Source: an uncultured Alphaproteobacteria bacterium (GTDB taxonomy: Bacteria; Pseudomonadota; Alphaproteobacteria; Rs-D84). From it: DNA of 64,000 nt. This document shows, one piece after another, positions 465 through 60,145 of the stretch (the stretch's first letter is position 1; each line of letters begins with the position of its first letter). Under the pieces are notes generated by a model. The model did no database searches. It was not told the origin of the DNA and worked only from the letters and a program-made list of their open reading frames with translations. The stretch spans positions 363,338 to 427,337 of the forward strand of contig OZ007020.1 in the NCBI GenBank assembly GCA_963931495.1, written 5' to 3'. Position numbers and translations under genes: made by a program.

Positions 465-920
465 GTGATGAAGTTCAAACGTGTTGTGCCATATAATTTG
501 AAAAAGATGCTGCCGATATTGGGAATTGCCGGTATCGGTGCCGTATCATCATGTGAAAAAGTTGAACCAATAGAAATGCCAAAGACGTCTGTAGAATTTG
601 AGATACGCGGCGGAACTAATAGTAATCTGGTCGCAGAAACGTGTGAATGGAACTATAATCGTATGGTGCCAGAGATATTTACATATGCGGACCAAGAATA
701 TATTGACACGGTGTATTTGGTGCCTATCAGTGTATGGTCATATAATTCAGAGGCGATACATTATATACGCAAAAACTTTTTAGAGCAATTTATAAACTAT
801 TCACCGAAAATTCGTGGAAAAGGTGATTTCCCGTTCCGTACAGGAGAGGCATCCAAGGTACCAGAAGACAGTTTATGGTTTGTCCAGAACGGTTGGACGA
901 TAAATCAAAAACAACGCTAA
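465..920 (+). CDS. Putative lipoprotein, paralog A (signal peptide with lipobox ...AVSSC)
   Basis: N-terminus MMKFKRVVPYNLKKMLPILGIAGIGAVSSCEK contains a lipobox. The C-terminus DSLWFVQNGWTINQKQR is shared with the next gene. Confidence 0.5.
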   Translation: MMKFKRVVPYNLKKMLPILGIAGIGAVSSCEKVEPIEMPKTSVEFEIRGGTNSNLVAETCEWNYNRMVPEIFTYADQEYIDTVYLVPISVWSYNSEAIHYIRKNFLEQFINYSPKIRGKGDFPFRTGEASKVPEDSLWFVQNGWTINQKQR

Positions 921-949
921 AGCGGTCTTTATTTACAAGGGGTAAGATT

Positions 950-1426
950 ATGAAAAAAATAAATTTCAGAAAAATTTTTCCGTATAATTTGAAAAAGATG
1001 TTGCCAGTATTGGGAATTGCCGGTATTGGCGCCGTGTCGTCGTGCGAAAAACCATCACCATATCAACCAGCGCCAGCCGAAGTTGATGTTTATTTTGATT
1101 ATGATAATACAGATCCAGCATATATATGGACATTAAGTTCAAATGGGCAATATACTTATGAACCCGGGAAACCTGTACAATATTACAATGAACATCCAGA
1201 TGTTAAGACAATTTATATTGTGCCGGCGGGGCAATGGAACGAGTATACTGGTGTTGTGTTGCAAAGAATACGTCCTGGGTTGGAGATGCTGTTTAATTAT
1301 TCGCCAAAGGTTCGTGGCAAGGGCAATTTTAATTTGCCGTTGGGGTATGCAGCCCAGTTTCCAGAAGATAGTTTATGGCTTGTTCAACATGGATGGACGA
1401 TAAATCAACAACAAAATCAGCATTAA
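950..1426 (+). CDS. Putative lipoprotein, paralog B (tandem duplicate of 465..920)
   Basis: MKKINFRKIFPYNLKKMLPVLGIAGIGAVSSCEK...DSLWLVQHGWTINQQQNQH. The internal ATG at 950 follows the stop of the preceding gene at 920. The ORF track started it at 875, overlapping the previous gene. Confidence 0.5.
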   Translation: MKKINFRKIFPYNLKKMLPVLGIAGIGAVSSCEKPSPYQPAPAEVDVYFDYDNTDPAYIWTLSSNGQYTYEPGKPVQYYNEHPDVKTIYIVPAGQWNEYTGVVLQRIRPGLEMLFNYSPKVRGKGNFNLPLGYAAQFPEDSLWLVQHGWTINQQQNQH

Positions 1427-3106: not shown

Positions 3107-3502
3107 ATGAAAAAAGTTCTGGTTTCCGCAATTGCATTGACCGCTTTGACCGGATGCAGCGCATATTATGACTACTATAAGGGCGGCGTCAGATATACCC
3201 AAGATGGGCAAGATTGTATCTATTACGCCGGCGAATATGGACGTAATTTTTCCCAGTATGTCAGTGGTATTGATAATGGCAAAAAGATTGTCTATCGCAA
3301 CACACGGTGTGAAGACCTGTATGCGCGCGATACGTTTGGTTTGCCACAACGTAATGAACGCCAGGTTCTGGCCCCGGCGGCCCAAGAAGTGTCGTGCACA
3401 CAATGTGGTGCGTGTGGTGCCGAAACTGTTTCTTGCGGATGCGATTCTTGCGGTGCCCAGCCGGTTCTGAAACGCAGATATGTCATCGTTCCGGCGATGT
3501 AA
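3107..3502 (+). CDS. Small lipoprotein with a Cys-rich C-terminus
   Basis: MKKVLVSAIALTALTGCSAYY contains a lipobox (LTGC). C-terminus CTQCGACGAETVSCGCDSCG. Confidence 0.45.
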   Translation: MKKVLVSAIALTALTGCSAYYDYYKGGVRYTQDGQDCIYYAGEYGRNFSQYVSGIDNGKKIVYRNTRCEDLYARDTFGLPQRNERQVLAPAAQEVSCTQCGACGAETVSCGCDSCGAQPVLKRRYVIVPAM

Positions 3503-3633
3503 AGCAAACCAGATTTCGTTGACTTTTGGCGGCAATGCCGATGCTGTTCGGTGTTGCCGCTGTGTTTTTATCTTGCTTGAATCATGCGTGTTTTTGTGAT
3601 ACAATTGCTGTAACAGGTTAAAAGGGGATTCAT

Positions 3634-4014
3634 ATGAAAAAATTATTAAAGATTTTGGGTGTTGCTGGTATCATCGCAACCGTCGGTGCCGGCGGGGCAA
3701 TGGCGGTCGCGGCGGGCGGTGTCGGTGTTAATGATTCCGGACTGTGCATGTTAATCGGGCAAATGTATGGCGTGTTCAAAATATTACGTACGTTGGCGTT
3801 TGTTGGGGCTGCGTTCATTATCGCTGGATGGGCATGGACATATATTTCCAAAGGCAAGGTTGAAATGGAGGACCTGAAAGCCAAAGGTACAGGCATGTTG
3901 GTCGGGTTCGTATTGTTGTTTGGTATCGGTATTGTGTTACAGTTCTTCTTGTCATCAGCCGGGTTGGGGATGATTGGATGCGAAAATGTAATACTGCAAT
4001 GGGGATTGAATTAA
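3634..4014 (+). CDS. VirB2/TrbC-like type IV secretion pilin candidate (small protein with a signal peptide and two TM helices)
   Basis: Long signal peptide MKKLLKILGVAGIIATVGAGGAMA. The mature part NDSGLCMLIGQMYGVFKILRTLAFVGAAFIIAGWAWTYISKGK...MLVGFVLLFGIGIVLQFFL resembles the VirB2 arrangement (..NNICTFILGPFGQ..IGISWMFGR..hydrophobic helix 2). Confidence 0.35.
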   Translation: MKKLLKILGVAGIIATVGAGGAMAVAAGGVGVNDSGLCMLIGQMYGVFKILRTLAFVGAAFIIAGWAWTYISKGKVEMEDLKAKGTGMLVGFVLLFGIGIVLQFFLSSAGLGMIGCENVILQWGLN

Positions 4015-4042
4015 AAAAACGGCCAAATGGCCGTTTTTTATT
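4014..4042. terminator. Bidirectional Rho-independent terminator between convergent genes
   Basis: aaaaaaacggccaaatggccgtttttta. Confidence 0.6.
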
Positions 4043-4094
4043 GTTCTGGCGTAAATACCCCGGGCGTGGGCCCAAGGAATTATTTATTTTATTT

Positions 4095-5045
4095 TTATCG
4101 CTGTAAAACCTGGGGCGCGAATTGTTGAATAAATTTTTGTTCCGCGTTTTTGAATTCACGCGATATATTGGTGACTGATTTTTTGAATATGTCTTGTTCT
4201 GGGGCGATTCCAGTCTTTTGTATCATGCGAACGCGTGCAGACACCAGTTCTTCGTATAATATATCGGCAAAACGTTCAAATCGCATATGTGGGGTCGTGT
4301 CCCATGTGGCAATGGCGTTGCATATGCCCCGCCGGCGTGACAGTAATGACTGGGCCCCCATATAATTTGACAGTGGGTCATTGTCGTATATCGGAATGTC
4401 GTGACCGATTTTGATGTCGTTTGCGTCGCGACCATAGAAAAACGCACGGTGCATATAATAATGAAAATGGCGCATGTTGGCATGATTACGATGGGCAATG
4501 CCGTTGACCATGTGTTCTGCGCGTGCCAATTCATCACGCAATGATATGCGGGCGTATTGGTATGTTTGGTTGTATATATCACCGAATGTCGCGTTCGGCA
4601 TCATAAAATATGTCTGGGTGAATATCTGGCGTGGCCATTGACGCATTATTGACCAGCATGCATATCGGGTTAATTTGGCGTCTGGGGCGTTTGTTTTGTT
4701 TATTGTCTGGTTGCCGTCATTGATTTGATAGTTGTTATGTATCGTCGCAATGTGACCAGTATAGAAATTATAAAAGTTTTGCGGAATACGTTCGTTATCT
4801 GAATTATGTCGGCGGATTTTTTCAAATGTTTTGCGATTAATTGCGTCGCGACCAATTGTGTCAATGTCGTCGTGGTGACCCATGTATAATGGACCAAATA
4901 AATTATATAAATCAGAAAATAACCAATATTCGCATTCGGATGTTATGGCGGCGCCAGAAAACAGGGTGGGGGGATTATCGTCATATGTGCTGTGGGTGCA
5001 ACGATTCAATTGATTGTAAATATTTTCAGATTTTTCGTGTGCCAT
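4095..5045 (-). CDS. Hypothetical protein (316 aa), no recognisable family
   Basis: Long ORF flanked by terminators. Its codon usage is consistent with its neighbours. Confidence 0.4.
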   Translation of the reverse strand: MAHEKSENIYNQLNRCTHSTYDDNPPTLFSGAAITSECEYWLFSDLYNLFGPLYMGHHDDIDTIGRDAINRKTFEKIRRHNSDNERIPQNFYNFYTGHIATIHNNYQINDGNQTINKTNAPDAKLTRYACWSIMRQWPRQIFTQTYFMMPNATFGDIYNQTYQYARISLRDELARAEHMVNGIAHRNHANMRHFHYYMHRAFFYGRDANDIKIGHDIPIYDNDPLSNYMGAQSLLSRRRGICNAIATWDTTPHMRFERFADILYEELVSARVRMIQKTGIAPEQDIFKKSVTNISREFKNAEQKFIQQFAPQVLQR

Positions 5046-5067: not shown

Positions 5068-5310
5068 TTATTTTTGTTCTTCTATGTTCGCCAATGAAAA
5101 CAAAACAGACGAAATCAATGATTGGTATGGGACGTGTTGTTGATCGGCCAATTGTTTTATGCGTTCCAAAATCTGGTGCGGAATGCGCATGTTTATCACA
5201 CTGTCAGATTTATTAAATGCGCGATATGCCGCATATTCTTTCAGTAAAGATTCTATGTTCATTATGAACAGTTGTTGCATTACGTTTGGCATACACAACC
5301 CCCTATACAT
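5068..5310 (-). CDS. BrnA-like ribbon-helix-helix antitoxin with no adjacent BrnT toxin gene
   Basis: C-terminal INMRIPHQILERIKQLADQQHVPYQSLISSVL matches the BrnA RHH signature (..LRLPeel...lk..A...GiPYQtlI..). The true start may be the internal Met at 5262. Confidence 0.45.
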   Translation of the reverse strand: MYRGLCMPNVMQQLFIMNIESLLKEYAAYRAFNKSDSVINMRIPHQILERIKQLADQQHVPYQSLISSVLFSLANIEEQK

Positions 5311-11244: not shown

Positions 11245-13062
11245 ATGAAAAACACGTTTGGCATTTCAACATTAGCAATCACATTGGCCATAGGGGCATT
11301 TGTGTGTGACGCAAATGCGGCGGCAACTGTTCGGGCATTGGGGGGCAGTGGAACGTATTCCAGTGCATCCAGTGCATCGTCTGGTTCGTCGGCCACAACA
11401 CGGGGCAGTTCGGTCAGTGTTGCACCGGTGGCCAGTTCTGGGTCGTCGGGCGTCGCGGCAACCGGTGGTGGAACAACCACGGGGCGGGTTTCAACAATGC
11501 CACGTCTGTCGTTGGGCAGTTATTTGACCGGTGCAATTAATTCCAGTGGCGGAATGCTGCGGCCGGTGGTGTCGGGTGATGATTCTTCGTCGTCTGGTTC
11601 GGGGTCTGGGTCAACAGGTGGTAATATGACCCCCGGGGCATCCGCGGAAATTATCAAGGAAATTGACCGGTTGCATTCAGATGTGGAAAGTTTGCGCGCA
11701 TCAGATGAAAGTCTGTTGGAAAGCATGGATGCCAAGCAGGATGTTTTGGTTCCGACCGAAGATGGGTATGTTGTTATTGACAATAATGAAATCTTTTTGG
11801 ACGTTGAAAATTTAAGTAATGCATTAGAAGAACTGGTTGATGATGGTCGTGAAGTAGAAATTGATTATGATGGCGAATATGTTGTTTGGCGTTATGTCGG
11901 TGATGCAGTGTGGAATAATTTGATATCCAAGGAAGATATTACCGGACCCCAAGGACCCGAAGGACCCCAAGGTCCCCAGGGCGAGGCCGCCAATCTGGAC
12001 GCATATTCAACAACAGAACAGATGAATTTTGCAATTGCAAATGCAATTGGTGCGCTGGCTGAAATATACGCAACGAAAACAGAATTAACAAAGTATCCGA
12101 CGTCTGATACTGTGGCGGCAACATACGCGACCAAGGCGGAATTGGCGAAATATCCAACCGCGGATACGGTTGTTGCAACCTATGCAACCAAGGAAGAGTT
12201 AAAGAACTATCCCACGTCTGAAACAGTATCGGCAACATATGCAACAAAAACAGAGTTGGCGACCAAGGCAACGACCGAGGCACTGGAACGTGGATTGGCG
12301 GCCAAGGCAGATGCCGCGGCATTGGATAACTATGTTAAAACAGGAACACTGACCCAGTATTATTATGACAAGGCCGGGGTTGATAATCGTATATCTGAAA
12401 TTGTGTCGGGGGATTTAAGTACTGCGTTGACACAATATGTTAAAACAGAAGATATGAATACGGCATTGGCGGGCAAGGTTGATAACGAAGATATGGTCAA
12501 CTATGCAACGGTTGCAACGGTTGATACCAAGGCGGATAAAACAGCGGTGGAATCGTTGGCACTGACGGTTGCAGATGTTGATACAGTCGCAACATCGGCG
12601 GCCCAGGGTGTTGATACGGTGTCTGATTTGGTGGATGAGGTTATTGGGCATGTAAAACAGAATAAAACGGCAATTGGAAATATGCAGACTGTCGTAGGGG
12701 CGGGGGAATTGTCAACCGAAGCGCGAACAATCGTGGGGGCCATCAATGAAATAACAGGTCGGGTGGACGATTTACCAACACAGAGCAATTTCCAAGAAGT
12801 TAATCAAGCTATCACCAGCATAGAAAATGCATTGGAAACCAAGGTTGAAACGACCGAATTAAATGAAATCGCCTTTACCGGCCAGATTACAAATGAAAAT
12901 GTGGCGGAAAATGCGGGGATTTCACGTATTAAATTATCATCGGATGTTCAAGATTCTTTGGATCGTGCCGATGAAGCGGTGGTTGTTGATGGTATCGGTT
13001 CAAATCGTATCTTGGGAACAGACGACGCCGGTCAAGAAACGTGGTACGAAATTGTTATGTAA
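11245..13062 (+). CDS. Secreted phage-tail-fibre-like / collagen-like repeat protein (array member 1, 605 aa)
   Basis: Signal peptide. Ser/Gly-rich linker. Collagen triplets GPQGPEGPQGPQGE. Four tandem YATK(T/A/E)EL(T/A/K)KYPT(S/A)DTV repeats. Ala-rich coiled-coil segments. Confidence 0.5.
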   Translation: MKNTFGISTLAITLAIGAFVCDANAAATVRALGGSGTYSSASSASSGSSATTRGSSVSVAPVASSGSSGVAATGGGTTTGRVSTMPRLSLGSYLTGAINSSGGMLRPVVSGDDSSSSGSGSGSTGGNMTPGASAEIIKEIDRLHSDVESLRASDESLLESMDAKQDVLVPTEDGYVVIDNNEIFLDVENLSNALEELVDDGREVEIDYDGEYVVWRYVGDAVWNNLISKEDITGPQGPEGPQGPQGEAANLDAYSTTEQMNFAIANAIGALAEIYATKTELTKYPTSDTVAATYATKAELAKYPTADTVVATYATKEELKNYPTSETVSATYATKTELATKATTEALERGLAAKADAAALDNYVKTGTLTQYYYDKAGVDNRISEIVSGDLSTALTQYVKTEDMNTALAGKVDNEDMVNYATVATVDTKADKTAVESLALTVADVDTVATSAAQGVDTVSDLVDEVIGHVKQNKTAIGNMQTVVGAGELSTEARTIVGAINEITGRVDDLPTQSNFQEVNQAITSIENALETKVETTELNEIAFTGQITNENVAENAGISRIKLSSDVQDSLDRADEAVVVDGIGSNRILGTDDAGQETWYEIVM

Positions 13063-13083
13063 CAGAGCAGAATGGGAACGTAA

Positions 13084-14247
13084 ATGAAAAATAAAAAAAT
13101 TGTTTTTTGTGGATTTGCGGCGACATTACTGATGGCGGGTACCGCGAATGCGGCGGTGAAAATTGCCAGCCAAGAATACGTTGATCGTGTTGATAATGTT
13201 ATCGCGGAAAGCGTTGATTCTGTTCAGACCCAGGTTACAGAATTGGATACCGTTGTTAATGACCCGGATACAGGGCTGGTTAGTGGGGTTGCGGATTTAC
13301 AATCCCAGATTTCGGGCAAGCAAGATGTTGCGAATTTAACCCAGACCATAAATGATGAATCCCAGGAAACACAATATCCATCGGCGGCGGCGGTTAATAC
13401 GGCAATCAAAGATGCAACAACAGGACTGGTTGGCAGCGAAGATTTAGAAGATTTGGCCGGTGATGTAAATGCGCTGAACACAAATGTTATCCAGTTGCAA
13501 TTTGATGTAAAGTCAAAACAGGATTCTTTGAATGATAATCAAATGAATGCGGTGAATTCTGGGATTACTGCGGACAAGGTTACACAGTATGATGAATATG
13601 CAACCCAGATTGCGGCCAAGCCAGACGCAGCATCGTTGGCAACAGTGGCAACAACAGGATCATATAATGATTTGAAAGATGCGCCGGCACCGATTGTCGT
13701 TGATGCGACGTTAAGTGCAGAAAGTACAAATCCGGTTCAAAATAAAGTTATTAATGCCGCATTGGCAACCAAGGCCAGTACCCAGGATGTTTCTGATATC
13801 GCCGAAGATGTGACGATATTGGAATATCTGGTTAATAACGAAGATACAGGCTTGTCGGCCCAGGTTGCAGATATTGCTACCGCGGTTGAAACAGCGCAAT
13901 CGGGTGTTGATTCGTTGACACAAACAGTCGGTAATGCCGAAGGTGGACTGGTCAAAGATGTTACAGATTTGCAAGGCGATATGTCTGGCAAGCAAGATGT
14001 GGCAAGTCGTGAAAATACAATCACTGATGATGATACAAAATATCCATCATCTGGGGCGGTGTACGATGCGTTGGCAACCAAGGCTGATGTTGATGCAACG
14101 TATACCAAAGAAGAAACAGACAACCAAATCACTACATTGGCAATACCACGGCCAAGTGATGAATGTATGGCATCGTCAGGGGTGTGTGTGTTGTCGGTAA
14201 CCAGTTCTGGTGACTTTGCATGGGTTAATGTGGCGTATCCAGATTAA
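13084..14247 (+). CDS. Secreted phage-tail-fibre-like coiled-coil protein (array member 2, 387 aa)
   Basis: Signal peptide followed by IASQEYVDRVD. Motifs QYPSAAAVNTAI, ATTGSYNDLKDAPAP and KYPSSGAVYDALATKAD, which are typical of tail-fibre repeats. C-terminal Cys motif ECMASSGVCVL...WVNVAYPD. Confidence 0.5.
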   Translation: MKNKKIVFCGFAATLLMAGTANAAVKIASQEYVDRVDNVIAESVDSVQTQVTELDTVVNDPDTGLVSGVADLQSQISGKQDVANLTQTINDESQETQYPSAAAVNTAIKDATTGLVGSEDLEDLAGDVNALNTNVIQLQFDVKSKQDSLNDNQMNAVNSGITADKVTQYDEYATQIAAKPDAASLATVATTGSYNDLKDAPAPIVVDATLSAESTNPVQNKVINAALATKASTQDVSDIAEDVTILEYLVNNEDTGLSAQVADIATAVETAQSGVDSLTQTVGNAEGGLVKDVTDLQGDMSGKQDVASRENTITDDDTKYPSSGAVYDALATKADVDATYTKEETDNQITTLAIPRPSDECMASSGVCVLSVTSSGDFAWVNVAYPD

Positions 14248-14305
14248 TTTGGCTGGGGCAAAACAAAGAGATATAAAGAGAAAAAAATAAAACAGGAGAA
14301 AACAA

Positions 14306-15580
14306 ATGAAAAAATTAACCGCAGGTATATTTGCAACCTTATTAGCTGTTGTGTCGGTTGGTGCCGCACGCGCTGATATCGCGTCCAGCCAATATGTTGA
14401 TGACAAGGTTGATACCGTTGAAACATCTGTAACAACATTGTCTGGACGGGTTGATACCGCCGAAGAGGGAATTGAAACATTGGGAACAAAATTGGATGCC
14501 AAGTTGGATTCTGCAACAGCGGCCAGCACGTATGCAACCCAATCAGCATTAACAAGTGGTTTGGCGAACAAGCAAGATAAAGCACTGATTACATCAGCAG
14601 AATATGCGGAACATATATCCAGTGAAACAGGTTATCCATCTGTGGCGGCAGTAGAAGCGGCAATTGATGCGGCAACCGATGGGGTGGTTACCGATGTGTC
14701 GGACAAGGTTGATATTGCCCAGGGCGCTGGTGCCGCGAACAAGGCTGTTATTACTGGGGCGGATGGTAATATTACAACTGGTGAAGTTACCAGCGGCATG
14801 ATTGCAGATGGTACAATCGTTAATGCAGATATTTCCGCATCGGCGGCCATTGAGGCATCAAAAATTACAGGTCTGGGTGGTTTGGCCAGTCAAGATACTG
14901 TTGGTGCCGGTGATATTGAAGCGGGCGCAATCGTTAATGCAGATATTTCCGCGTCGGCAGCCATTGATCAATCAAAAATTAATGGATTAGAAGCATCGTT
15001 GGGTGCAAAAGAAAATGTTGCTAATCGTGTTACAACGACAACATGGAATGCAAACAAGAACAGTGATGAAATGTATCCGACAGCGGGTGCGGTCAATGCC
15101 GCAATTACAACCGCAACGTCTGGTATTACAACAGATATATCTGAATTGACGACCCAGGTTGAAGAAAATACCCAGGGTATCGCTGATAACGCAAGTGATA
15201 TATCAACCAATACATCGGCGATTGGTACTTTGACCAGTTTGACAACCACAGAACAAGGAAACTTGGTTGGTGCGATTAATGAAGTGGCCGGTGAGGTTGC
15301 GGATGTTTCGGGTGATATTGCATTAAAACAGAATATCACAGATAACACATTCACAACAGCGGCGAAGACGGTACCGGGTGCTGTTAATGAATTGAAAACC
15401 GCGGTTGATGCGGCCGCAGATGCGGCAGAAGCAGCCCAGACGGCGGCCGATGCCAAGATCCCAATGCCAAGTGGCGAATGCAGCAACCCAACAAACAAAT
15501 GCGTATTAGTATCAAATGGTACAAGTTCGTTTGAATGGGAAGTTGTTGCCCGTGGTGTGTCACCGGATGTTGGTGAATAA
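14306..15580 (+). CDS. Secreted phage-tail-fibre-like coiled-coil protein (array member 3, 424 aa)
   Basis: Signal peptide followed by DIASSQYVDDKVD. Motifs GYPSVAAVEAAIDAATDG and MYPTAGAVNAAITTATSG. Duplicated block GTIVNADISASAAIEASKITGLGG / GAIVNADISASAAIDQSKINGLEA. C-terminus GECSNPTNKCVLVSNGTSSFEWEVV. Confidence 0.5.
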   Translation: MKKLTAGIFATLLAVVSVGAARADIASSQYVDDKVDTVETSVTTLSGRVDTAEEGIETLGTKLDAKLDSATAASTYATQSALTSGLANKQDKALITSAEYAEHISSETGYPSVAAVEAAIDAATDGVVTDVSDKVDIAQGAGAANKAVITGADGNITTGEVTSGMIADGTIVNADISASAAIEASKITGLGGLASQDTVGAGDIEAGAIVNADISASAAIDQSKINGLEASLGAKENVANRVTTTTWNANKNSDEMYPTAGAVNAAITTATSGITTDISELTTQVEENTQGIADNASDISTNTSAIGTLTSLTTTEQGNLVGAINEVAGEVADVSGDIALKQNITDNTFTTAAKTVPGAVNELKTAVDAAADAAEAAQTAADAKIPMPSGECSNPTNKCVLVSNGTSSFEWEVVARGVSPDVGE

Positions 15581-15596
15581 TTTTACCGATAAGATT

Positions 15597-15628
15597 CTGT
15601 GTGTGATGCGTGGTGCGTCACACACAGA
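15597..15628. promoter_or_regulatory. Near-perfect 11-13 bp inverted repeat (TCTGTGTGTGA-N-TCACACACAGA) in the spacer between array genes 3 and 4
   Basis: tctgtgtgtgatgcgtggtgcgtcacacacaga. No T-run follows, so it is more likely an operator or RNA-processing hairpin than a terminator. Confidence 0.35.
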
Positions 15629-15698
15629 AGGATAAAAATGGGTATAAGTGGTGCGCAACGTAACGGTAATGTGAACATTTAGTTTTGTTTATGTAAAT

Positions 15699-16736
15699 GT
15701 GATGCTGAAAGTTAAAAATATTTTTGCTGTTTCTGTTATCGCGATAATGACAGTTGGCGGGGCGTTGGCTGATATTGCATCTGTAACGTATGTTGATGAT
15801 AAGTTCAGCACCGTTGAAACCGATGTTACGGGAAATGTCACAGGGGACGGGAATGTTGTAACCACAATTTCAGCCAGTGGTAACACGGTTACCGCGACCA
15901 AGGGAATAACCGCCGAAGAAATTAAAAACAAGGTTGAAAGCATTCGTGATTCTGGGACGGCAACAAACACGGCGTATCCATCAGAACGTGCGGTTGCAAT
16001 TGCGTTGGCGGTCAAGGCAGATTCCAGCACTGTTTCCGCAATGCAAAGTGATATAGATGCCGCCGGTGCCGCCGCCGCCGAGGCCAAAGAAGCGGCCAGC
16101 AGTGCAGAAAGTGCAGCAACAGAGGCATCAGAAGCCGCCGCCGCCGCCACCGCAGCGGTCGCGAACAAGGTTACGGCGAATGCCGCAATCACGGGTGGCA
16201 CAGCAACAAAAATTACATTTGATGCCAAAGGATTGGTTACGGGTGGGGCCAATTTGACCGCTGATGATATTCCAACGGTTCCAAGTACAAAAGTTTCGGG
16301 GCTGTCAACAGTCGCAACGTCGGGGTCGTATGATGATTTGACGGACAAGCCGTCTATCCCAGCGGCATATACTTTGCCGGCGGCGACATCGGCGGCGTTG
16401 GGCGGTGTTAAATCGGGCGGTGATATTTCTGTTTCCGCAGATGGTATTGTGACAGTCAGCAATGCTGCATCGGCGGACAAGGCGACAACGGCCACAACCG
16501 CAACGAATGCAACCAATGCAACAAATGCGACGAATGATGCCGGCGGTAATAATATTGCGAGTACGTATGCAACCAAGTCGCAAATAACGGCATTGAACAG
16601 TTCATCCACAGGTACGGGTGCCGTTGTGACCGCTGTGTCACAATCAGGTGGCAAGGTTTCAGTGACCAAGGGCAATGTTCAAATTCCTGTGGGCAGTGCG
16701 ACCGGAACATCGTATGCCACGATATGGGTTGAATAG
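15699..16736 (+). CDS. Secreted Ala-rich coiled-coil protein (array member 4, 345 aa)
   Basis: Signal peptide followed by DIASVTYVDDKFS. Motifs AYPSERAVAIALAVKAD and VATSGSYDDLTDKPSIPAAYTLPAATSAALGGVK, a classic tail-fibre motif. Also TATTATNATNATNATND. Confidence 0.5.
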   Translation: MMLKVKNIFAVSVIAIMTVGGALADIASVTYVDDKFSTVETDVTGNVTGDGNVVTTISASGNTVTATKGITAEEIKNKVESIRDSGTATNTAYPSERAVAIALAVKADSSTVSAMQSDIDAAGAAAAEAKEAASSAESAATEASEAAAAATAAVANKVTANAAITGGTATKITFDAKGLVTGGANLTADDIPTVPSTKVSGLSTVATSGSYDDLTDKPSIPAAYTLPAATSAALGGVKSGGDISVSADGIVTVSNAASADKATTATTATNATNATNATNDAGGNNIASTYATKSQITALNSSSTGTGAVVTAVSQSGGKVSVTKGNVQIPVGSATGTSYATIWVE

Positions 16737-17422: not shown

Positions 17423-18298
17423 TCAACTGCCGGTGGTATCACTGCCGGTGAATTTATTTGGTATAACATAGCATTCTGTTATAGAAACAGTGCCAGGGGT
17501 TGCAGAACCGCCAACACCGATAGAGCCGTCGTTTATTTCGCCCGGGCCGGCGGTCGTTTGGGTACCAGATGAATGCGATGGGCATGGGGTGCAATATGAT
17601 ACTATGCTGCCGGCGAAATTTGCATTAGGTACCCCGTAAAATCCCTTGGGGCATCGCGTTTGTTTATTCATGTACGTCATGCATCTGTTGCCACTGCATG
17701 CTTTCTTTGTGCGGACCTGGACCGCGTTTGAACCACTGTATGCCATTTCCCATGCTGTTGGAACGCATGTTGATTCATCGCATGTGCCACCAGTGGTGCC
17801 ACCACCACCAGTATTGCTGGCCAAAGAATCACTCATACATTTATAATAGGTTACATTACTGCATCCCAAAATAGTGTGTTTTACGCGTGTGTATCCAGAT
17901 TTACATCCGCTGGCGGATTTAATATAGTATTGAATACCATCTGCATCAAAACATATGTTTGTGGTACCTGTGGCCCCAGGATCGCCCATCACAGATGCCG
18001 TTGAACCAAAGTCTATGAATTCCGTGCGTTCATATATATTGGTGCATCCCGCAGACAGGCATTGAGCATATCCACCGCCGCCGCCACCACCACCACCGGA
18101 ATCGCCACAGCGACGACAACATGCGGTGTTTACAATGTCAAGGCATGTCATGCATCCACTGATGCATTCGGATACGTTATCCCAATCTAAGTATGATTCA
18201 GGAATGTTGGCACTGAATGCAGGCGTATTGAAACACAGGCAACATAACACAGAAAACACCCCGCCATGCCAAATGGCGGCATTTGATTTTATATACAT
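17423..18298 (-). CDS. Secreted cysteine-rich protein with ephrin-receptor/TNFR-like repeats and a poly-Gly tract
   Basis: Signal peptide MYIKSNAAIWHGGVFSVLCCLCFNTPAFSA. GGGGGGGGGG run. Motifs CTPCPSHSSGT, CPKGFYG and CKSGYTRV. The start is taken at an internal Met; the ORF track gives 18343. Confidence 0.5.
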   Translation of the reverse strand: MYIKSNAAIWHGGVFSVLCCLCFNTPAFSANIPESYLDWDNVSECISGCMTCLDIVNTACCRRCGDSGGGGGGGGGYAQCLSAGCTNIYERTEFIDFGSTASVMGDPGATGTTNICFDADGIQYYIKSASGCKSGYTRVKHTILGCSNVTYYKCMSDSLASNTGGGGTTGGTCDESTCVPTAWEMAYSGSNAVQVRTKKACSGNRCMTYMNKQTRCPKGFYGVPNANFAGSIVSYCTPCPSHSSGTQTTAGPGEINDGSIGVGGSATPGTVSITECYVIPNKFTGSDTTGS

Positions 18299-18396
18299 AT
18301 TTTTGTCTCCCACTTTTGTTGTTGTGAATGCCGAATTTGTCATTCACAACATTTGCATTTATTATATAAAATTTTGCATGTGGGTTCAATCGCAAA

Positions 18397-21307: not shown

Positions 21308-21724
21308 ATGTCTGTGTGGACGTATATACTTAAAACACCAATAAAAGTAATTCGGGCGGATTTCGCAGAATATAGAAAACTGAATCAAGACATTGCGCGT
21401 GTGGGACGTAATATGCAGAATGCACGTGTTAATATGATTGTGCGTATGGGGAAAAAATGGTGCGTGGTTCCATCGGCACGTGCGTATGCGGGCTGTGTGC
21501 AAAAATCTTGGACCCCAGAGTTAGATATTCAAATGGGAATTAATGTATTGCGTGAATATGAATGTGAATGTCCGTTGTTCGTTCCAAACTGGTGGCCGTG
21601 TAATCAAGTAAACTGTCTGTATCACCAGTTTAACAACAAGTATTTTGAAAATAAAAATATTTATGAAGTTCTGAAACGTAATAAGTCTGGGTTTTGGAAA
21701 GAAAAGTTTAACAAGGTACGATAA
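21308..21724 (+). CDS. Small Cys-containing protein, family member S1 (138 aa)
   Basis: N-terminus WTYILKTPIKVIRADFAEYRKL, paired Cys residues, C-terminus FWKEKFNKVR. Paralogous to 21742..22023 and 22358..22747. Confidence 0.4.
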   Translation: MSVWTYILKTPIKVIRADFAEYRKLNQDIARVGRNMQNARVNMIVRMGKKWCVVPSARAYAGCVQKSWTPELDIQMGINVLREYECECPLFVPNWWPCNQVNCLYHQFNNKYFENKNIYEVLKRNKSGFWKEKFNKVR

Positions 21725-22357: not shown

Positions 22358-22747
22358 ATGAAAATAATTCAATATATGTTAACAACACCAATAAAACAAC
22401 AACGTGCGGACCTTGCGGAATGGCGTATATTACAATACAAATGCGCGTCACTGCATTTGGATAAATTTTGCGCATATGATTCGCTGATTCGGTTTGTTAA
22501 CGAAAATCAAAATCCGCATGATATACGGGCGTGTGTAAAGCGGCCTGAAAATTGGCAACAGTTCATGTCCGTCCCAGACGATTCGTTTTGTAAAAAATTT
22601 AATCCAAATAATATGATGGGGGCGTGCGATGAACAAAATTGTCCTTTCTATCAGCGCAATAATGCATTCTTTAATATTTTGAAACGGTATGAAAGCGCGA
22701 TTACAGCACGGCGTGATTTTTGGGATAATAAAATGAATCAGCGTTAG
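22358..22747 (+). CDS. Small Cys-containing protein, family member S3 (129 aa)
   Basis: IIQYMLTTPIKQQRADLAEWRIL ... CPFYQRNNAFFNILKRYE ... FWDNKMNQR. Confidence 0.4.
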   Translation: MKIIQYMLTTPIKQQRADLAEWRILQYKCASLHLDKFCAYDSLIRFVNENQNPHDIRACVKRPENWQQFMSVPDDSFCKKFNPNNMMGACDEQNCPFYQRNNAFFNILKRYESAITARRDFWDNKMNQR

Positions 22748-22770: not shown

Positions 22771-23769
22771 ATGGCACATCAATTCTTTTTTAATCCGTTT
22801 ATATTGGATAACTTGCCGACACCAAGTGCGGGATTTGATGTGGTCCAGGATATATCTGAACCGCGTCTGCGTATGTATATCACCAGTCGCGGGATAAAAA
22901 CATTCTTTGTGCGTAAACGTGTACATGGGCGGGACAAGCGTATAATAATTGGAAATTATCCGGATATTGATGTTGAAACAGCACGTGGAATGGTGCCATC
23001 TGTGTTGGCGCGCGCAATGGAAAAACCACGCCGTCGCAATAAAAAAATTACAATGCGCAAATTTCTGGATATATATTTGACGAACCGAATTCGCAGAAAC
23101 AGTTATTCGCGCGAAAAATTGGAACGCGCAATAAGACGGCATCTGTCACCACTGTTTGATATGCCATTGAATGAAATTTCAGATGCTGATATTGCCAATG
23201 TTATCATATGTATCCATGGCCCGGCCATCGCAGCCCGTATGCAGGATTTGTTACAAAGTGTTTACAAGTATGCAATTGATAATGGGTATGCCAATGAAAA
23301 TCCAGTTGCGAAATTACAGAAAATAAAGCCTGTGCGTCGTGTGCGGCCGTTGAATATGGCGGGGTTCCATCGGCTGGTGGGGGCAATAAAACGCGAACCT
23401 GTCCAGAATTTGCGCGCGGCGTTTTTAATGCTGGTGTACGGTTTCGCACCGAAATCACGTGTCTTTGCAATGCAATGGCGTGACCTGGATTTTAACCTTT
23501 ATATGTGGAATGATTGGCCACTGTCTGATGCCGCGGTTGTTTTGTTACAGGATTTGCCGCAAAATGGCCGTTGGGTATTTCCTGGACGGGGACGGGGGCA
23601 TTTGACAGATCCGCGTGTCGCATGGCAGCGGATTGTGACCAAGGCCGGTATCCCAAATGTGACAATGGACGATGTGCATAAATTCTTGATGCGACAATTG
23701 GTCTGGGCCCCAGACAAGGAAGATATTCGTGCAAATATGAATGATGTTTTGGTAAATGCGCTTGGTTGA
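22771..23769 (+). CDS. P4-type (tyrosine recombinase family) integrase homolog, short and probably catalytically degenerate
   Basis: N-terminal arm-binding signature LRMYITSRGIKTFFVRKRVHGRDKRIIIGNYPDIDVETARGM (compare L.L.V.PSG.K.W..RYR..GK....LG.YP..SLA.AR). The C-terminal region lacks an obvious HxLRHT...Y catalytic box. At 332 aa it is shorter than the typical ~400 aa. Confidence 0.5.
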   Translation: MAHQFFFNPFILDNLPTPSAGFDVVQDISEPRLRMYITSRGIKTFFVRKRVHGRDKRIIIGNYPDIDVETARGMVPSVLARAMEKPRRRNKKITMRKFLDIYLTNRIRRNSYSREKLERAIRRHLSPLFDMPLNEISDADIANVIICIHGPAIAARMQDLLQSVYKYAIDNGYANENPVAKLQKIKPVRRVRPLNMAGFHRLVGAIKREPVQNLRAAFLMLVYGFAPKSRVFAMQWRDLDFNLYMWNDWPLSDAAVVLLQDLPQNGRWVFPGRGRGHLTDPRVAWQRIVTKAGIPNVTMDDVHKFLMRQLVWAPDKEDIRANMNDVLVNALG

Positions 23770-27486: not shown

Positions 27487-27563
<77 letters not shown>

Positions 27564-31420: not shown

Positions 31421-31987
31421 ATGAGAAAGCTTATATTTATTATCGTTGTCTGCATGCTGTACCACAACGCGTATGGTGCGGTAGGAGAACCATGCAGCGA
31501 GCCGTGTTTAGAAGGAACAATCCCAATACCATATAGTTGGGATTGTGGTGTGTGTCCTGCTAATACATATATGGATGAGGTGTTATGTCCCGAACCCAGA
31601 TTATTTGAATGTAAGCCATGTCCCGCGGGTACAATAACAATTGGCGATACAGCCGCCGATCATGACAGTATTGATGACTGTGTCGCTGCGCCTGTATTGT
31701 GTGCGTCCGGATATTATTTGCCTGCCGGTTCTGCAACATGTACGCAATGCCCAAAAAATTCATATTGCCCGGGCGGGGAATATACATCATCTGGTCAAGA
31801 TAGTGGTATTATCGCATGTCCAAATGATACCAAATCACCGATTGGTTCTGACAGTGCGGATGATTGTGGTCGTATATTACATATTGGTGAATATGTTTTA
31901 TACTTACGCACTGCAAAATTAACCAGTCCAGCATTGCATGTAAAAATAGGTGATGTGATATATTATGGGGATGCGTTTCCCGCATAG
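31421..31987 (+). CDS. Secreted cysteine-rich protein with ephrin-receptor/TNFR-like repeats (188 aa)
   Basis: Signal peptide MRKLIFIIVVCMLYHNAYG. Motifs CPANTYMDEVLCPEPRLFECKPCPAGT and CTQCPKNSYCPGGEY. Confidence 0.5.
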   Translation: MRKLIFIIVVCMLYHNAYGAVGEPCSEPCLEGTIPIPYSWDCGVCPANTYMDEVLCPEPRLFECKPCPAGTITIGDTAADHDSIDDCVAAPVLCASGYYLPAGSATCTQCPKNSYCPGGEYTSSGQDSGIIACPNDTKSPIGSDSADDCGRILHIGEYVLYLRTAKLTSPALHVKIGDVIYYGDAFPA

Positions 31988-56066: not shown

Positions 56067-56080
56067 TTGGGACGGGATAA

Positions 56081-58954: not shown

Positions 58955-58960
58955 TAAATA

Positions 58961-58990
58961 GAAAATCCCGCCAATGTCGGGATTTTTATT
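58961..58990. terminator. Bidirectional Rho-independent terminator
   Basis: aaaatcccgccaatgtcgggattttta. Confidence 0.6.
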
Positions 58991-59020
58991 GTTCCGACGT
59001 AATACCACGGGCGTGACTAT

Positions 59021-60019
59021 TTATTTTATTTCATCAATTGATGTTATGACGCGTATGCCAGATTTTTCCCATTCTTGGCGGTGTGTTTCAAAATCCATTA
59101 TATTCGTTTGGCCCATGTATAATATTGGTTGCACGTTGTTTGCCGCGGCAACTGTGACCAGTGTTTTAATTGGTGATGGGCGTTGGCCACCGGTTGTGAA
59201 CCATGTTTCTTCATCGGCAACCCAGAAGTTTGCATCGTCGTGTACGGCAATGGCGTTTTTATCGGTTAATATTATGTCGTCTTGGGTTGTGTATGCAATG
59301 CCTTGTTCGGTCAGATATTTTGTTACACTGTTTTCATTGTTATTGTCATTGATGATGGGGATGGGGGTGTCATCAAAATTTATTTCCGAGAATACTGGGT
59401 TAAATTCCGGCATCATTGTATCAACGTCGTTGTCTGATTCCATTGGAACATCAAAATCGTTTGGCAATGGTATTTGCCCCACAGGCTGTAATTCGGGTGC
59501 CGTGGGTTGTGCCGGGGGCGCGGATGTAATGTTACTGATATCAAATCCAGAACGGGGCAAGGCCGCAAGGTTGTTTTTTGCACGCGTATACATTGTGCGC
59601 ATTTCGTGTGGCATGTTTGGTGGAAATTCTGGCGCATGATTTTGTTCTGGAATTTTTTCCGTCGGCGCCGGTGTATCATTGTTTTTGTCTGTTTGGGGCG
59701 CGTCACATGGAACAGGTTCCATAAACTTTGGTATTTTTATCGTAAACAGTGGTGCGTTACGGCGCGCAATTATTACAGTTGTTGCAACATATAATGGCAG
59801 TGCTGATAATATTAACAAACCAAATACAAATCCAGGAAATCCATGCAGTTCTGAACGCGCCAAGTGAATCCAGTATTCGGTGGAAAACATATTGAAATTA
59901 AACATCCAATATAAAATTGCCCACATTGTGAAAATATAAAATACTGTCCATATTAATGGATGCTTGATGCGTTTGAAAAAATTCAGTACTTTATTCATAT
60001 GTATATAAAGTATAGACAA
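59021..60019 (-). CDS. Membrane-anchored protein with a Pro-rich linker and a C-terminal globular domain; function unknown
   Basis: Two N-terminal TM helices (IWTVFYIFTMWAILYWMF; FVFGLLILSALPLYVATTVII). Pro-rich PAPTEKIPEQNHAPEFPPNMP. Possible start at 59998. Confidence 0.4.
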   Translation of the reverse strand: MSILYIHMNKVLNFFKRIKHPLIWTVFYIFTMWAILYWMFNFNMFSTEYWIHLARSELHGFPGFVFGLLILSALPLYVATTVIIARRNAPLFTIKIPKFMEPVPCDAPQTDKNNDTPAPTEKIPEQNHAPEFPPNMPHEMRTMYTRAKNNLAALPRSGFDISNITSAPPAQPTAPELQPVGQIPLPNDFDVPMESDNDVDTMMPEFNPVFSEINFDDTPIPIINDNNNENSVTKYLTEQGIAYTTQDDIILTDKNAIAVHDDANFWVADEETWFTTGGQRPSPIKTLVTVAAANNVQPILYMGQTNIMDFETHRQEWEKSGIRVITSIDEIK

Positions 60020-60145
60020 TAATATAGATTTGTCAATGTTTGTATGATTTTATGTTGTTGGGTTTTGAAAAAGTGCTTTTTTTTGTCGCGTTTTTAGGAT
60101 ATAATCTGTTAATAAGAGTGTCTTATAACAAGGGGGAGTTTTCCT

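What the first reader, a model, noticed from the sequence alone, without database searches (positions are those of the whole stretch)
3634..4014. Isolated VirB2/TrbC-like pilin candidate
The 126-aa product has the hallmark T4SS pilin organisation. There is a long signal peptide, then two hydrophobic helices separated by a short charged loop (ISKGKVEMEDLKAKGTG). Sequence in the first helix is reminiscent of VirB2 (..LCMLIGQMYGV.. vs ..ICTFILGPFGQ..). No other virB genes are in the window. Scattered virB2 paralogs away from the main T4SS cluster are typical of Rickettsiales-type intracellular alphaproteobacteria.
Basis: partly seen in the sequence, partly recalled or inferred. Interest (0 to 1): 0.5.

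Follow-up and report, generated by a model that had tools for sequence, protein, structure and literature searches.

The report
Orphan VirB2-like pilin gene, gut symbiont
This small membrane-protein gene is a real, conserved and very divergent relative of the pilin (VirB2/TrbC) that builds type IV secretion pili; it sits alone among housekeeping genes in a tiny-genome gut alphaproteobacterium (Rs-D84 / 'Candidatus Enterousia' group) whose relatives carry other type IV secretion genes scattered around the chromosome.

Summary
The ORF at 3634..4014 (+, 126 aa) is real, with its own Shine-Dalgarno, promoter-like site and terminator. It has a 24-aa Sec signal peptide (conserved AxA site), two hydrophobic helices and a 15-aa charged loop. 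It belongs to a family of over 700 proteins found almost only in gut Rs-D84/'Ca. Enterousia' alphaproteobacteria with genomes under 1 Mb.

The window protein itself gives no Pfam or NCBIfam VirB2 hit. At family level the link holds. Eleven of 50 diverse members hit PF04956 (TrbC/VirB2) at 20–26 bits, below the 27.9 cut-off, and 0 of 40 architecture-preserving decoys do. hhalign against a broad VirB2/TrbC alignment gives P = 8e-5; 0 of 200 column-shuffled nulls reach that score (z = 7.6). This distance equals that between accepted VirB2 subfamilies.

There are no T4SS genes in the window or about 10 kb beyond it. Relatives carry virB3–virB4 embedded in housekeeping genes, once 4 kb from a family member. 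Two features are new: an invariant periplasmic Cys pair, and a conserved lipoprotein gene directly upstream in 76 of 85 loci.

This is a new, divergent variant of a known kind. T4SS function and T4SS presence in this exact genome remain unproven.

The parts
3107..3502 (+). Conserved partner gene: a 131-aa lipoprotein (lipobox LTGC, YDYY motif, four invariant Cys). No known family.
   Evidence: Directly upstream on the same strand in 76 of 85 related loci, including loci where tolB and copG have moved. LPAM_1 lipobox in 13 of 18 members and no other Pfam or PDB relative. Family alignment.
3527..3562 (+). Terminator-like hairpin plus T-run between the lipoprotein gene and the pilin-like gene.
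   Evidence: 15-bp stem, 8 G-C pairs. Suggests the two genes can be transcribed separately; this is inferred.
3577..3605 (+). Sigma-70-like promoter candidate (TTGAAT-17-TACAAT with TG extension).
   Evidence: A consensus match only; the count is not above the shuffle expectation.
3623..3627 (+). Shine-Dalgarno AGGGG, 6 nt upstream of the ATG.
   Evidence: Read directly from the sequence.
3634..3705 (+). Signal peptide, residues 1-24 (MKKLLK n-region, hydrophobic core, A22-M-A24 cleavage motif).
   Evidence: Hydropathy. A22 in 260 of 276 and A24 in 270 of 276 members. The region is otherwise variable.
3706..4014 (+). Predicted mature pilin-like protein (residues 25-126) plus stop codon. It has a variable N-tail, amphipathic helix 37-53, TM1 54-72, loop 73-87, TM2 88-108 and a variable C-tail with a short helix.
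   Evidence: AF2 model with the 50-sequence alignment: pLDDT 74.7, helices 34-73, 78-108 and 117-125. Conservation by segment: TM1 0.91, TM2 0.81, tails about 0.5.
3745..3747 (+). Codon of Cys38, the first of the conserved Cys pair. It aligns with Cys64 of A. tumefaciens VirB2.
   Evidence: Both Cys present in 274 of 276 unique members (273 scored, plus P0169, whose first Cys is only misaligned), both lost in 2, never one alone. hhalign register.
3850..3894 (+). Charged inter-helix loop (residues 73-87, KGKVEMEDLKAKGTG), predicted to face the cytoplasm.
   Evidence: Family medians for this stretch are 4 K/R and 3 D/E over 16 residues. The orientation is inferred from signal-peptide cleavage and the two TM segments.
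3979..3981 (+). Codon of Cys116, the second of the conserved Cys pair, in the C-terminal tail predicted to be periplasmic.
4014..4046 (+). Intrinsic terminator: 11-bp stem AAAAAACGGCC/GGCCGTTTTTT followed by a T-rich tail.
   Evidence: sequence.

Best explanation
The gene encodes a highly divergent TrbC/VirB2-type pilin-like protein of a gut Rs-D84 ('Ca. Enterousia'-group) alphaproteobacterium with a genome of about 0.96 Mb. The proposed mechanism follows; steps are marked shown or inferred. (1) Shown: it is a stand-alone, conserved, vertically inherited core gene. (2) Inferred from sequence: the pre-protein enters the inner membrane by Sec and is cut after A22-x-A24. (3) Inferred: the roughly 102-residue product sits as a helical hairpin with both ends in the periplasm and the K/E-rich loop in the cytoplasm, the topology of VirB2/TrbC/TraA pilins. 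(4) Inferred from strict co-conservation: Cys38 and Cys116 form a periplasmic disulfide that ties the N- and C-terminal segments together, doing topologically what head-to-tail cyclisation does in VirB2 and TrbC. (5) Inferred: a chromosomal T4SS with dispersed genes draws on this membrane pool. Only virB3-virB4 were shown, and only in relatives; the VirB4 ATPase would extract the pilin to build a pilus or inner conduit used for contact with a partner cell. The conserved upstream lipoprotein is a candidate accessory factor of unknown role.
For: Family and conservation: (over 700 proteins, 195 species genomes, all gut Rs-D84-type MAGs). Architecture. Homology to TrbC/VirB2: PF04956 is the family matched by the most members (11 of 50, best E 1.4e-5); in five of the six hitting members scanned individually the match covers profile positions about 3-92 of 98. 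A 60%-identical relative, P0203, carries a precomputed PF04956 call. None of 40 segment-shuffled decoys hits at E<=0.01. hhalign against a 17-sequence broad VirB2/TrbC alignment taken from annotated T4SS operons gives Prob 61%, P=8e-5 and 93 collinear columns; 0 of 200 within-segment column shuffles reach that score, z=7.6. The accepted IncN TraM and At-VirB2 groups score no better against each other (P=0.011) than this family does against At-VirB2 (P=0.019). T4SS in the clade: the L084 contig carries virB3 (27.2 bits, above cut-off), virB4 (47.8 bits, above cut-off) and a family member 4 kb downstream. Clade-type virB4 occurs in 57 metagenome loci at 63-93% identity, always among housekeeping genes. 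Cys pair: 274 of 276 have both, 2 have neither, 0 have one. The most variable parts are the two tails, which established F-, T- and pKM101-pilus structures (my knowledge) place on the pilus surface. Lifestyle context: Rs-D84 genomes are under 1 Mb and presumed partner-dependent (PMC12306168).
Confidence: 0.6

Rival explanations
1. It descends from VirB2 but has been exapted. It no longer serves a T4SS and works as a structural or scaffolding inner-membrane protein of the cell envelope, together with the lipoprotein encoded directly upstream, in these wall-bearing bacteria with reduced genomes.
For: The pair lipoprotein plus pilin-like gene is kept in 76 of 85 loci and survives local rearrangements. 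It always lies in an envelope/housekeeping neighbourhood (tolB, acyltransferase, ftsEX). The TM core is very strongly conserved. Only virB3-virB4 were detected in the clade and no other T4SS parts near them. The lipoprotein resembles no known T4SS lipoprotein.
Against: Synteny is conserved overall in these small genomes, so adjacency is weak evidence of a functional link. A terminator-like hairpin separates the two genes. virB3/virB4 are conserved at 63-93% identity across 57 loci, which argues for a working T4SS that would need a pilin, and no other VirB2 candidate was seen. Lineages such as L084, L066 and L068 keep the gene without the lipoprotein.
Confidence: 0.2
2. It is an unrelated small secreted two-TM membrane protein. 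Its resemblance to VirB2/TrbC would be convergent, produced by the shared layout of signal peptide, two Gly/Ala-rich TM helices and a short loop.
For: No hit reaches a curated threshold. The hhalign probability is only 61%, and against each single subfamily P is only 0.004-0.09. Other membrane families give noise hits down to E=2e-4. Fold searches are non-specific.
Against: Decoys and column shuffles that keep architecture and composition never reach the real scores: 0 of 40 and 0 of 200, z=7.6. The match is full-length and collinear and puts the conserved Cys and Trp on those of VirB2. PF04956 is the family hit by the most members. Accepted subfamilies are equally distant from each other.
Confidence: 0.15
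3. It is a phage-type holin or another mobile-element membrane protein: class II holins also have two TM helices, and a CopG-like gene and an integrase lie in the window.
For: Small size and two TM helices. A copG-like gene lies 1 kb downstream, and an integrase lies at 22771-23769.
Against: It has a cleavable signal peptide with a conserved AxA site. The gene is a syntenic core gene in 195 species genomes with no phage or ICE genes around it. There is no match in plasmids. The copG-like gene is itself a conserved core gene at 86% identity. The integrase is 19 kb away.
Confidence: 0.03

Closest known systems
VirB2 of Agrobacterium tumefaciens (T-pilin; Pfam PF04956 TrbC/VIRB2)
   Same: A pre-protein of about 120 aa with a cleaved leader, two hydrophobic helices and a short polar loop. 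hhalign puts Cys38 on VirB2 Cys64 and Trp66 on Trp87. Predicted topology is the same.
   Different: The leader is 24 aa rather than about 47. The mature protein is about 102 aa rather than 74. There is no Gly-rich C-terminus used for head-to-tail cyclisation; instead there is an invariant Cys pair. The gene is not in a virB operon. Pairwise profile similarity is only P=0.019. The VirB2 processing facts come from my knowledge of the literature.
TraM of pKM101/R46 (IncN) and relatives: VirB2-type conjugative pilins
   Same: Same family-level architecture. They are as distant from At-VirB2 (P=0.011) as the window's family is (P=0.019) under the same test.
   Different: TraM lies directly upstream of virB3-virB4 in a complete plasmid T4SS operon. 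The window gene is chromosomal and alone. Direct family-against-IncN similarity is weak: P=0.048, over the leader region only.
Scattered virB2 paralogs of Rickettsiales (Anaplasma, Ehrlichia, Neorickettsia; rvh-type T4SS)
   Same: An alphaproteobacterium with a reduced genome. T4SS genes are split into separate chromosomal islands, with the pilin gene away from virB3/virB4 (literature: PMC3556328, PMC7789307, PMC4676284, listed; here). One lineage has a tandem duplicate.
   Different: The host lineage is Rs-D84/'Ca. Enterousia', anaerobic gut bacteria not known to be intracellular. Each locus examined holds a single copy, apart from that one tandem duplicate. No direct sequence comparison with Rickettsiales VirB2 proteins could be made here.
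TrbC of RP4 (IncP pilin)
   Same: It shares Pfam family PF04956 with VirB2, the family that members of this family hit. Its N- and C-termini are joined in the mature pilin (cyclic peptide), a topological parallel to the Cys38-Cys116 link proposed here.
   Different: TrbC is cyclised by the TraF peptidase after C-terminal trimming (my knowledge). No TraF-type gene or cyclisation motif is seen here, and the link would be a disulfide. RP4 was not in the plasmid collection under the accession I tried, so there was no direct comparison.

Membership tests
TrbC/VirB2 pilin family (Pfam PF04956) | Scores at or above the curated Pfam gathering threshold (27.9 bits) | tested here: not met
   Window protein: no PF04956 hit at E<=10. 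The best relatives score 20.3-25.6 bits. One 60%-identical relative (P0203) carries a precomputed PF04956.19 call.
TrbC/VirB2 pilin family (Pfam PF04956) | Sequence-specific profile similarity to accepted members, beyond what shared architecture gives | tested here: met
   Eleven of 50 members hit PF04956 (best 1.4e-5), against 0 of 40 segment-shuffled decoys. hhalign against the broad VirB2/TrbC alignment gives P=8e-5 and Prob 61%; 0 of 200 shuffles reach the real score, z=7.6. This is comparable to the distance between accepted subfamilies.
TrbC/VirB2 pilin family (Pfam PF04956) | Cleavable N-terminal leader followed by two hydrophobic helices joined by a short polar loop | tested here: met
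   The leader is of ordinary length (24 aa), not long.
TrbC/VirB2 pilin family (Pfam PF04956) | Encoded within or next to a T4SS gene cluster (typically directly upstream of virB3-virB4) | tested here: not met
   No T4SS gene in the window or about 10 kb beyond it. In 85 related loci only L084 has virB3-virB4 within 10 kb. All nine reference pilin genes fetched lie directly upstream of virB3. Rickettsiales are a known exception to this rule.
TrbC/VirB2 pilin family (Pfam PF04956) | A T4SS (VirB4 and so on) is present in the same genome | tested here: inconclusive
   Shown for one related genome on the same contig (L084) and for the clade at large (57 virB4 loci). The rest of the window's own 958,617-bp contig could not be read with the tools left.
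TrbC/VirB2 pilin family (Pfam PF04956) | Maturation (leader removal, C-terminal trimming or cyclisation) and polymerisation into a pilus or T4SS conduit | not testable with these tools
   Only sequence inference is available: a conserved AxA site, no Gly-rich cyclisation tail, and a co-conserved Cys pair instead.
Rickettsiales-type (rvh-like) dispersed chromosomal T4SS | T4SS genes split into several chromosomal islands among housekeeping genes | tested here: met
   In relatives, virB3-virB4 are flanked by mrdA, rodA, topA, dnaG, sufBD, rml and lpxK/lpxC, with no other virB genes within 10 kb.
Rickettsiales-type (rvh-like) dispersed chromosomal T4SS | Duplicated components (virB4, virB6, virB8, virB9) and multiple virB2 paralogs | not tested
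Only one tandem duplication of the pilin-like gene was seen (L005).

The most novel reading that the evidence does not exclude
Rs-D84/'Ca. Enterousia' bacteria are gut alphaproteobacteria with genomes under 1 Mb, no respiration and few biosynthetic pathways. On this reading they keep a stripped-down, dispersed T4SS whose pilin is stabilised by an intramolecular N-to-C disulfide instead of peptide cyclisation, and which works with a clade-specific Cys-rich lipoprotein. This apparatus would be the organelle through which they attach to, or draw metabolites from, a partner cell. It would be a previously unrecognised T4SS-based route to a partner-dependent lifestyle in the gut.
Probability: 0.15. 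Interest if true: 0.75.

Novelty: new variant of a known kind. Interest (0 to 1): 0.5.

Why it matters
Rs-D84/'Ca. Enterousia' is a widespread, uncultured gut lineage of humans, poultry, ruminants and horses. Its genomes are under 1 Mb and it is presumed to depend on other cells, but no mechanism of interaction has been described; the one genomic paper found (PMC12306168) mentions only 'hypothetical membrane-bound proteins'.

Almost none of the family members listed carries a Pfam annotation. Recognising it as a divergent VirB2/TrbC pilin, and showing that the clade has conserved chromosomal virB3-virB4, gives a concrete and testable candidate for a cell-contact machine. The exact protein is on record in 240 blocks of the assembly collection, so this species is common.

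The co-conserved Cys pair suggests an alternative to pilin cyclisation that could be tested biochemically. In practical terms, the family could seed a new Pfam or NCBIfam model, so that these genes stop being annotated as hypothetical.

Tried and rejected
- **Single-sequence Pfam and NCBIfam scans:** no VirB2/TrbC hit.
- **NCBIfam on 50 members:** noise only, such as CvpA and FraD.
- **Family profile against PDB sequences:** only a chance superoxide dismutase match.
- **hhalign and HMM search with only Agrobacterium-type VirB2:** not significant (P=0.019; best E=0.038 among 8,271 ORFs). The reference was too narrow and was replaced by a broader one.
- **tblastn of the protein against 72,556 plasmids at E<=10:** no match.
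- **Lipoprotein partner as a VirB7-like protein:** no support from Pfam or PDB.
- **The no-Pfam gene clusters in the window (11245-16736 and 53190-62167) as hidden VirB6-like or other T4SS genes:** rejected. They are signal-peptide-bearing repeat-rich or Cys-rich proteins with no ATPase motifs and no multi-TM cores, and they have no R46 T4SS similarity.
- **The six-gene block recurring downstream of virB4 in L084, L096, L098 and L142 as virB8-11/D4:** rejected. It is DUF374, lpxK, lpxC, an unknown, a PilO-like gene and an unknown.
- **Literature:** no paper links Rs-D84 to a secretion system. The 2023 Enterousia paper is not held, and the mSphere paper has no supplements held.
- **Plasmid references:** RP4 and R388 accessions were not in the collection.
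- **Looking beyond the window:** the exact OmpA-like ORF was not on record because the window truncates it. The neighbouring gene worked and showed no T4SS genes beyond the window end.

Full report
**1. The observation**

It looks like a self-contained gene:
- an AGGGG Shine-Dalgarno 6 nt before the ATG;
- a promoter-like TTGAAT-17-TACAAT at 3577-3605;
- a strong hairpin plus T-run at 4014-4039.

Hydropathy shows a signal-like N-terminus, hydrophobic helices at about 54-72 and 88-108, and the charged loop KGKVEMEDLKAKGTG. An AlphaFold2 model built on a 50-sequence alignment has mean pLDDT 74.7, about 90 over residues 41-110, with helices at 34-73, 78-108 and 117-125.

One detail needs correcting. 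A22-x-A24 is nearly invariant (260 and 270 of 276 members), so the leader is an ordinary 24-residue Sec signal. It is not a long VirB2-style one.

**2. The family and the organism**

The protein has 471 homologs at E<=0.01, 708 with a profile, and 72 clusters at 50% identity among 1.84 billion representatives. Almost none of the members listed carries a Pfam domain.

A scan of one genome per GTDB species found relatives in 195 genomes. Nearly all are gut MAGs titled 'uncultured Alphaproteobacteria' or 'Candidatus Enterousia', and a few are titled 'uncultured Rickettsiales'. The literature places Enterousia in the order Rs-D84: genomes under 1 Mb, no respiration, few biosynthetic pathways, and a presumed partner-dependent lifestyle. 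That paper does not mention a T4SS (PMC12306168).

The exact window protein is on record in 240 blocks of the assembly collection. The window lies on a 958,617-bp contig, ena:ERZ21564551:s287.ctg000449c.

**3. Is it VirB2/TrbC-like?**

Evidence against:
- The window protein alone gives no PF04956 or NCBIfam VirB2 hit.
- NCBIfam gives nothing for 50 members.
- The family profile finds no pilin among PDB sequences.
- tblastn against plasmids finds nothing.

Evidence for:
- When 50 diverse members are scanned one by one, PF04956 is the family matched by the most members: 11 of 50, best E = 1.4e-5.
- The scores are 20-26 bits, just under the 27.9-bit cut-off. In five of the six hitting members scanned individually the match spans profile positions about 3-92 of 98.
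- A relative 60% identical to the window protein (P0203) carries a precomputed PF04956 call.

Such hits could come merely from the shared layout of signal peptide plus two TM helices. I tested this with 40 decoys made by shuffling residues within each segment (n-region, h-region, N-tail, TM1, loop, TM2, C-tail) of two hitting members. None of the 40 hit PF04956 at E<=0.01, while both originals did.

I then built a reference independent of Pfam. It holds 17 annotated VirB2/TrbC proteins from four subfamilies (Agrobacterium-type, Acetobacter, Bradyrhizobium and Sinorhizobium plasmids, IncN TraM). The nine plasmid genes fetched for it all lie directly upstream of virB3. The results were:

| Comparison (hhalign) | P | Score |
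|---|---|---|
| Family vs broad VirB2/TrbC alignment | 8e-5 (Prob 61%, 93 collinear columns) | 32.3 |
| 200 within-segment column shuffles of the family (null) | median 0.31 | 12.0 ± 2.7, max 27.4 |
| IncN TraM vs At-VirB2 (positive control) | 0.011 | 19.3 |
| Family vs At-VirB2 | 0.019 | 19.5 |
| IncN TraM vs Bradyrhizobium group (positive control) | 0.0025 | 21.7 |
| Family vs Bradyrhizobium group | 0.0041 | 21.9 |

No shuffle reached the real score (z = 7.6). The family is about as far from classical VirB2 as recognised subfamilies are from each other.

I conclude that homology to the TrbC/VirB2 superfamily is probable, about 0.75-0.8. It is not established by any curated threshold.

**4. 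Context**

The window holds no T4SS gene. This rests on Pfam scans of 30 ORFs, inspection of the no-Pfam ORFs, the str/S10/spc/alpha ribosomal operons at 32-52 kb, and tblastn/phmmer with all eleven R46 T4SS proteins. The roughly 10 kb beyond each window end is also empty of T4SS genes.

Across the 85 related loci where the gene was found, its neighbourhood is a conserved housekeeping one: copG-like, tolB, SNase-like, acyltransferase, DUF218 and ftsEX. A 131-aa lipoprotein gene lies directly upstream on the same strand in 76 loci, including loci where tolB and copG have moved. That lipoprotein has a lipobox, a YDYY motif and conserved Cys residues, but no known relatives.

The gene's median identity across the loci is 62%. 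That is below TolB (81%) and FtsE (80%) and close to FtsX (66%). Within the protein, TM1 (0.91), TM2 (0.81) and the pre-TM helix (0.79) are conserved, while the two tails are variable at about 0.5. From published pilus structures (my knowledge), this fits pilin termini that face outward.

**5. T4SS in the clade**

The R46 VirB4 query found one hit in the 1.6 Mb of Rs-D84 loci I held, in L084. L084 is a 247-kb contig of 'Alphaproteobacteria bacterium KA0040-166'. Its gene order is:
- virB3 (PF05101, 27.2 bits, above the cut-off);
- virB4 (PF03135, 47.8 bits, above the cut-off);
- a 203-aa secreted protein;
- rmlACDB;
- the family member.

Using this clade-type VirB4 as a probe in JGI metagenomes gave 57 loci at 63-93% identity. 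In all those examined, virB3-virB4 (usually followed by the ~204-aa gene) are embedded among mrdA, rodA, topA, dnaG and sufBD, and in some loci lpxK and lpxC. No other T4SS gene or family member lies within 10 kb.

So the clade carries conserved, dispersed chromosomal T4SS genes, the layout known from Rickettsiales (literature). At least one genome has both virB3/virB4 and the pilin-like gene on the same contig.

**6. A distinctive feature**

The mature protein has exactly two Cys residues in 266 of 276 unique members. Cys38 and Cys116 are both present in 274 (273 scored, plus P0169, whose first Cys is only misaligned), both absent in 2, and never present singly. With the inferred topology both lie in the periplasm. 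This suggests a disulfide that ties the N- and C-terminal segments together.

This would be a topological analogue of the head-to-tail cyclisation of VirB2 and TrbC (my knowledge of the literature). The family lacks their Gly-rich C-terminal motif. The disulfide is an inference only.

**7. Verdict**

The most likely reading (0.6) is a divergent VirB2/TrbC-type pilin of a dispersed chromosomal T4SS in a gut symbiont with a reduced genome. The rivals are:
- a VirB2-derived protein now working outside a T4SS, with the lipoprotein (0.2);
- convergent resemblance (0.15);
- a holin or mobile-element protein (0.03).

It is a new variant of a known kind. It falls below curated thresholds, has a disulfide pair instead of a cyclisation motif, has a conserved lipoprotein partner, sits in an orphan core-genome position, and belongs to a lineage for which I found no report of a T4SS. 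Interest is moderate (0.5). It gives a concrete handle on how Rs-D84 bacteria might interact with partner cells, but function is unproven.

Noticed in passing
window 53190-56066 and 56081-58954: Two tandem paralogs of about 958 aa encoding Cys-rich secreted proteins with no Pfam family. A block of about 450-600 nt (roughly 54240-54690) is 100% identical to the copy 2.9 kb downstream, while the flanks are only 55-65% identical. This points to recent gene conversion. The second copy has an extra pair of C-terminal TM segments.
   Followed up: partly
window 11245-16736: Four consecutive genes (605, 387, 424 and 345 aa) encode signal-peptide proteins rich in Ala/Thr/Ser repeats, with recurring 'YPS..AV' and 'SQYVD' motifs and no Pfam hit. 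They look like a family of surface fibre or adhesin-like proteins.
   Followed up: no
window 465-1426, 1445-2983, 17423-18343(-), 31421-31987, 60146-62167: Many further secreted or lipoprotein ORFs without any Pfam family, several very Cys-rich; 465-920 and 875-1426 are paralogous lipoproteins. The window is unusually dense in unannotated envelope or surface proteins for a genome under 1 Mb.
   Followed up: no
window 21308-21724, 22358-22747, 22771-23769: Two paralogous small Cys-containing proteins (138 and 129 aa, no Pfam) lie next to a phage-type integrase. This may be a remnant of an integrated element. tRNA-Pro is at 27487-27563.
   Followed up: no
window 5068-5310 (-): A CopG-antitoxin-like gene is one of the most conserved genes of the neighbourhood (median 86% identity in 75 loci), with no obvious toxin partner. 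The gene between it and the pilin-like gene (4095-5045, 316 aa, no Pfam) is variable and often absent.
   Followed up: partly
L084 3276-6614; L116 9656-13040 and about 50 other metagenome loci: In Rs-D84-type genomes virB3-virB4 is usually followed by a conserved secreted protein of about 204 aa with conserved Cys and no Pfam family. It may be a clade-specific T4SS component, perhaps VirB5-like.
   Followed up: partly
L084 17584-18861: A 425-aa protein matching Pfam PAP_PilO (pilin accessory protein; 31.5 bits, above the cut-off) lies in a conserved block with lpxK and lpxC. It hints at another pilus-related system in this clade. A weak VirB11/GspE-like ATPase hit is at L115 11294-12913.
   Followed up: no
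L005 58-429 and 605-973 (also L003, L004): One divergent lineage carries a tandem duplication of the pilin-like gene. The first copy is 51% identical to the window protein and the second only 36%.
   Followed up: partly
window 62614-63936 (-): The OmpA-domain ORF at the window's end is cut by the window. On the source contig it is a 950-aa protein with CarboxypepD_reg-like and OmpA domains, followed by further large proteins without Pfam families (455, 288, 232 and 1240 aa).
   Followed up: partly
L086 (OZ246409.1), L043, L069: Several public records carrying this alphaproteobacterial locus are titled Muribaculaceae or Bacteroides fragilis, which looks like mislabelling or bin contamination. 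OZ246409.1 is a complete chromosome of only 716,531 bp.
   Followed up: no
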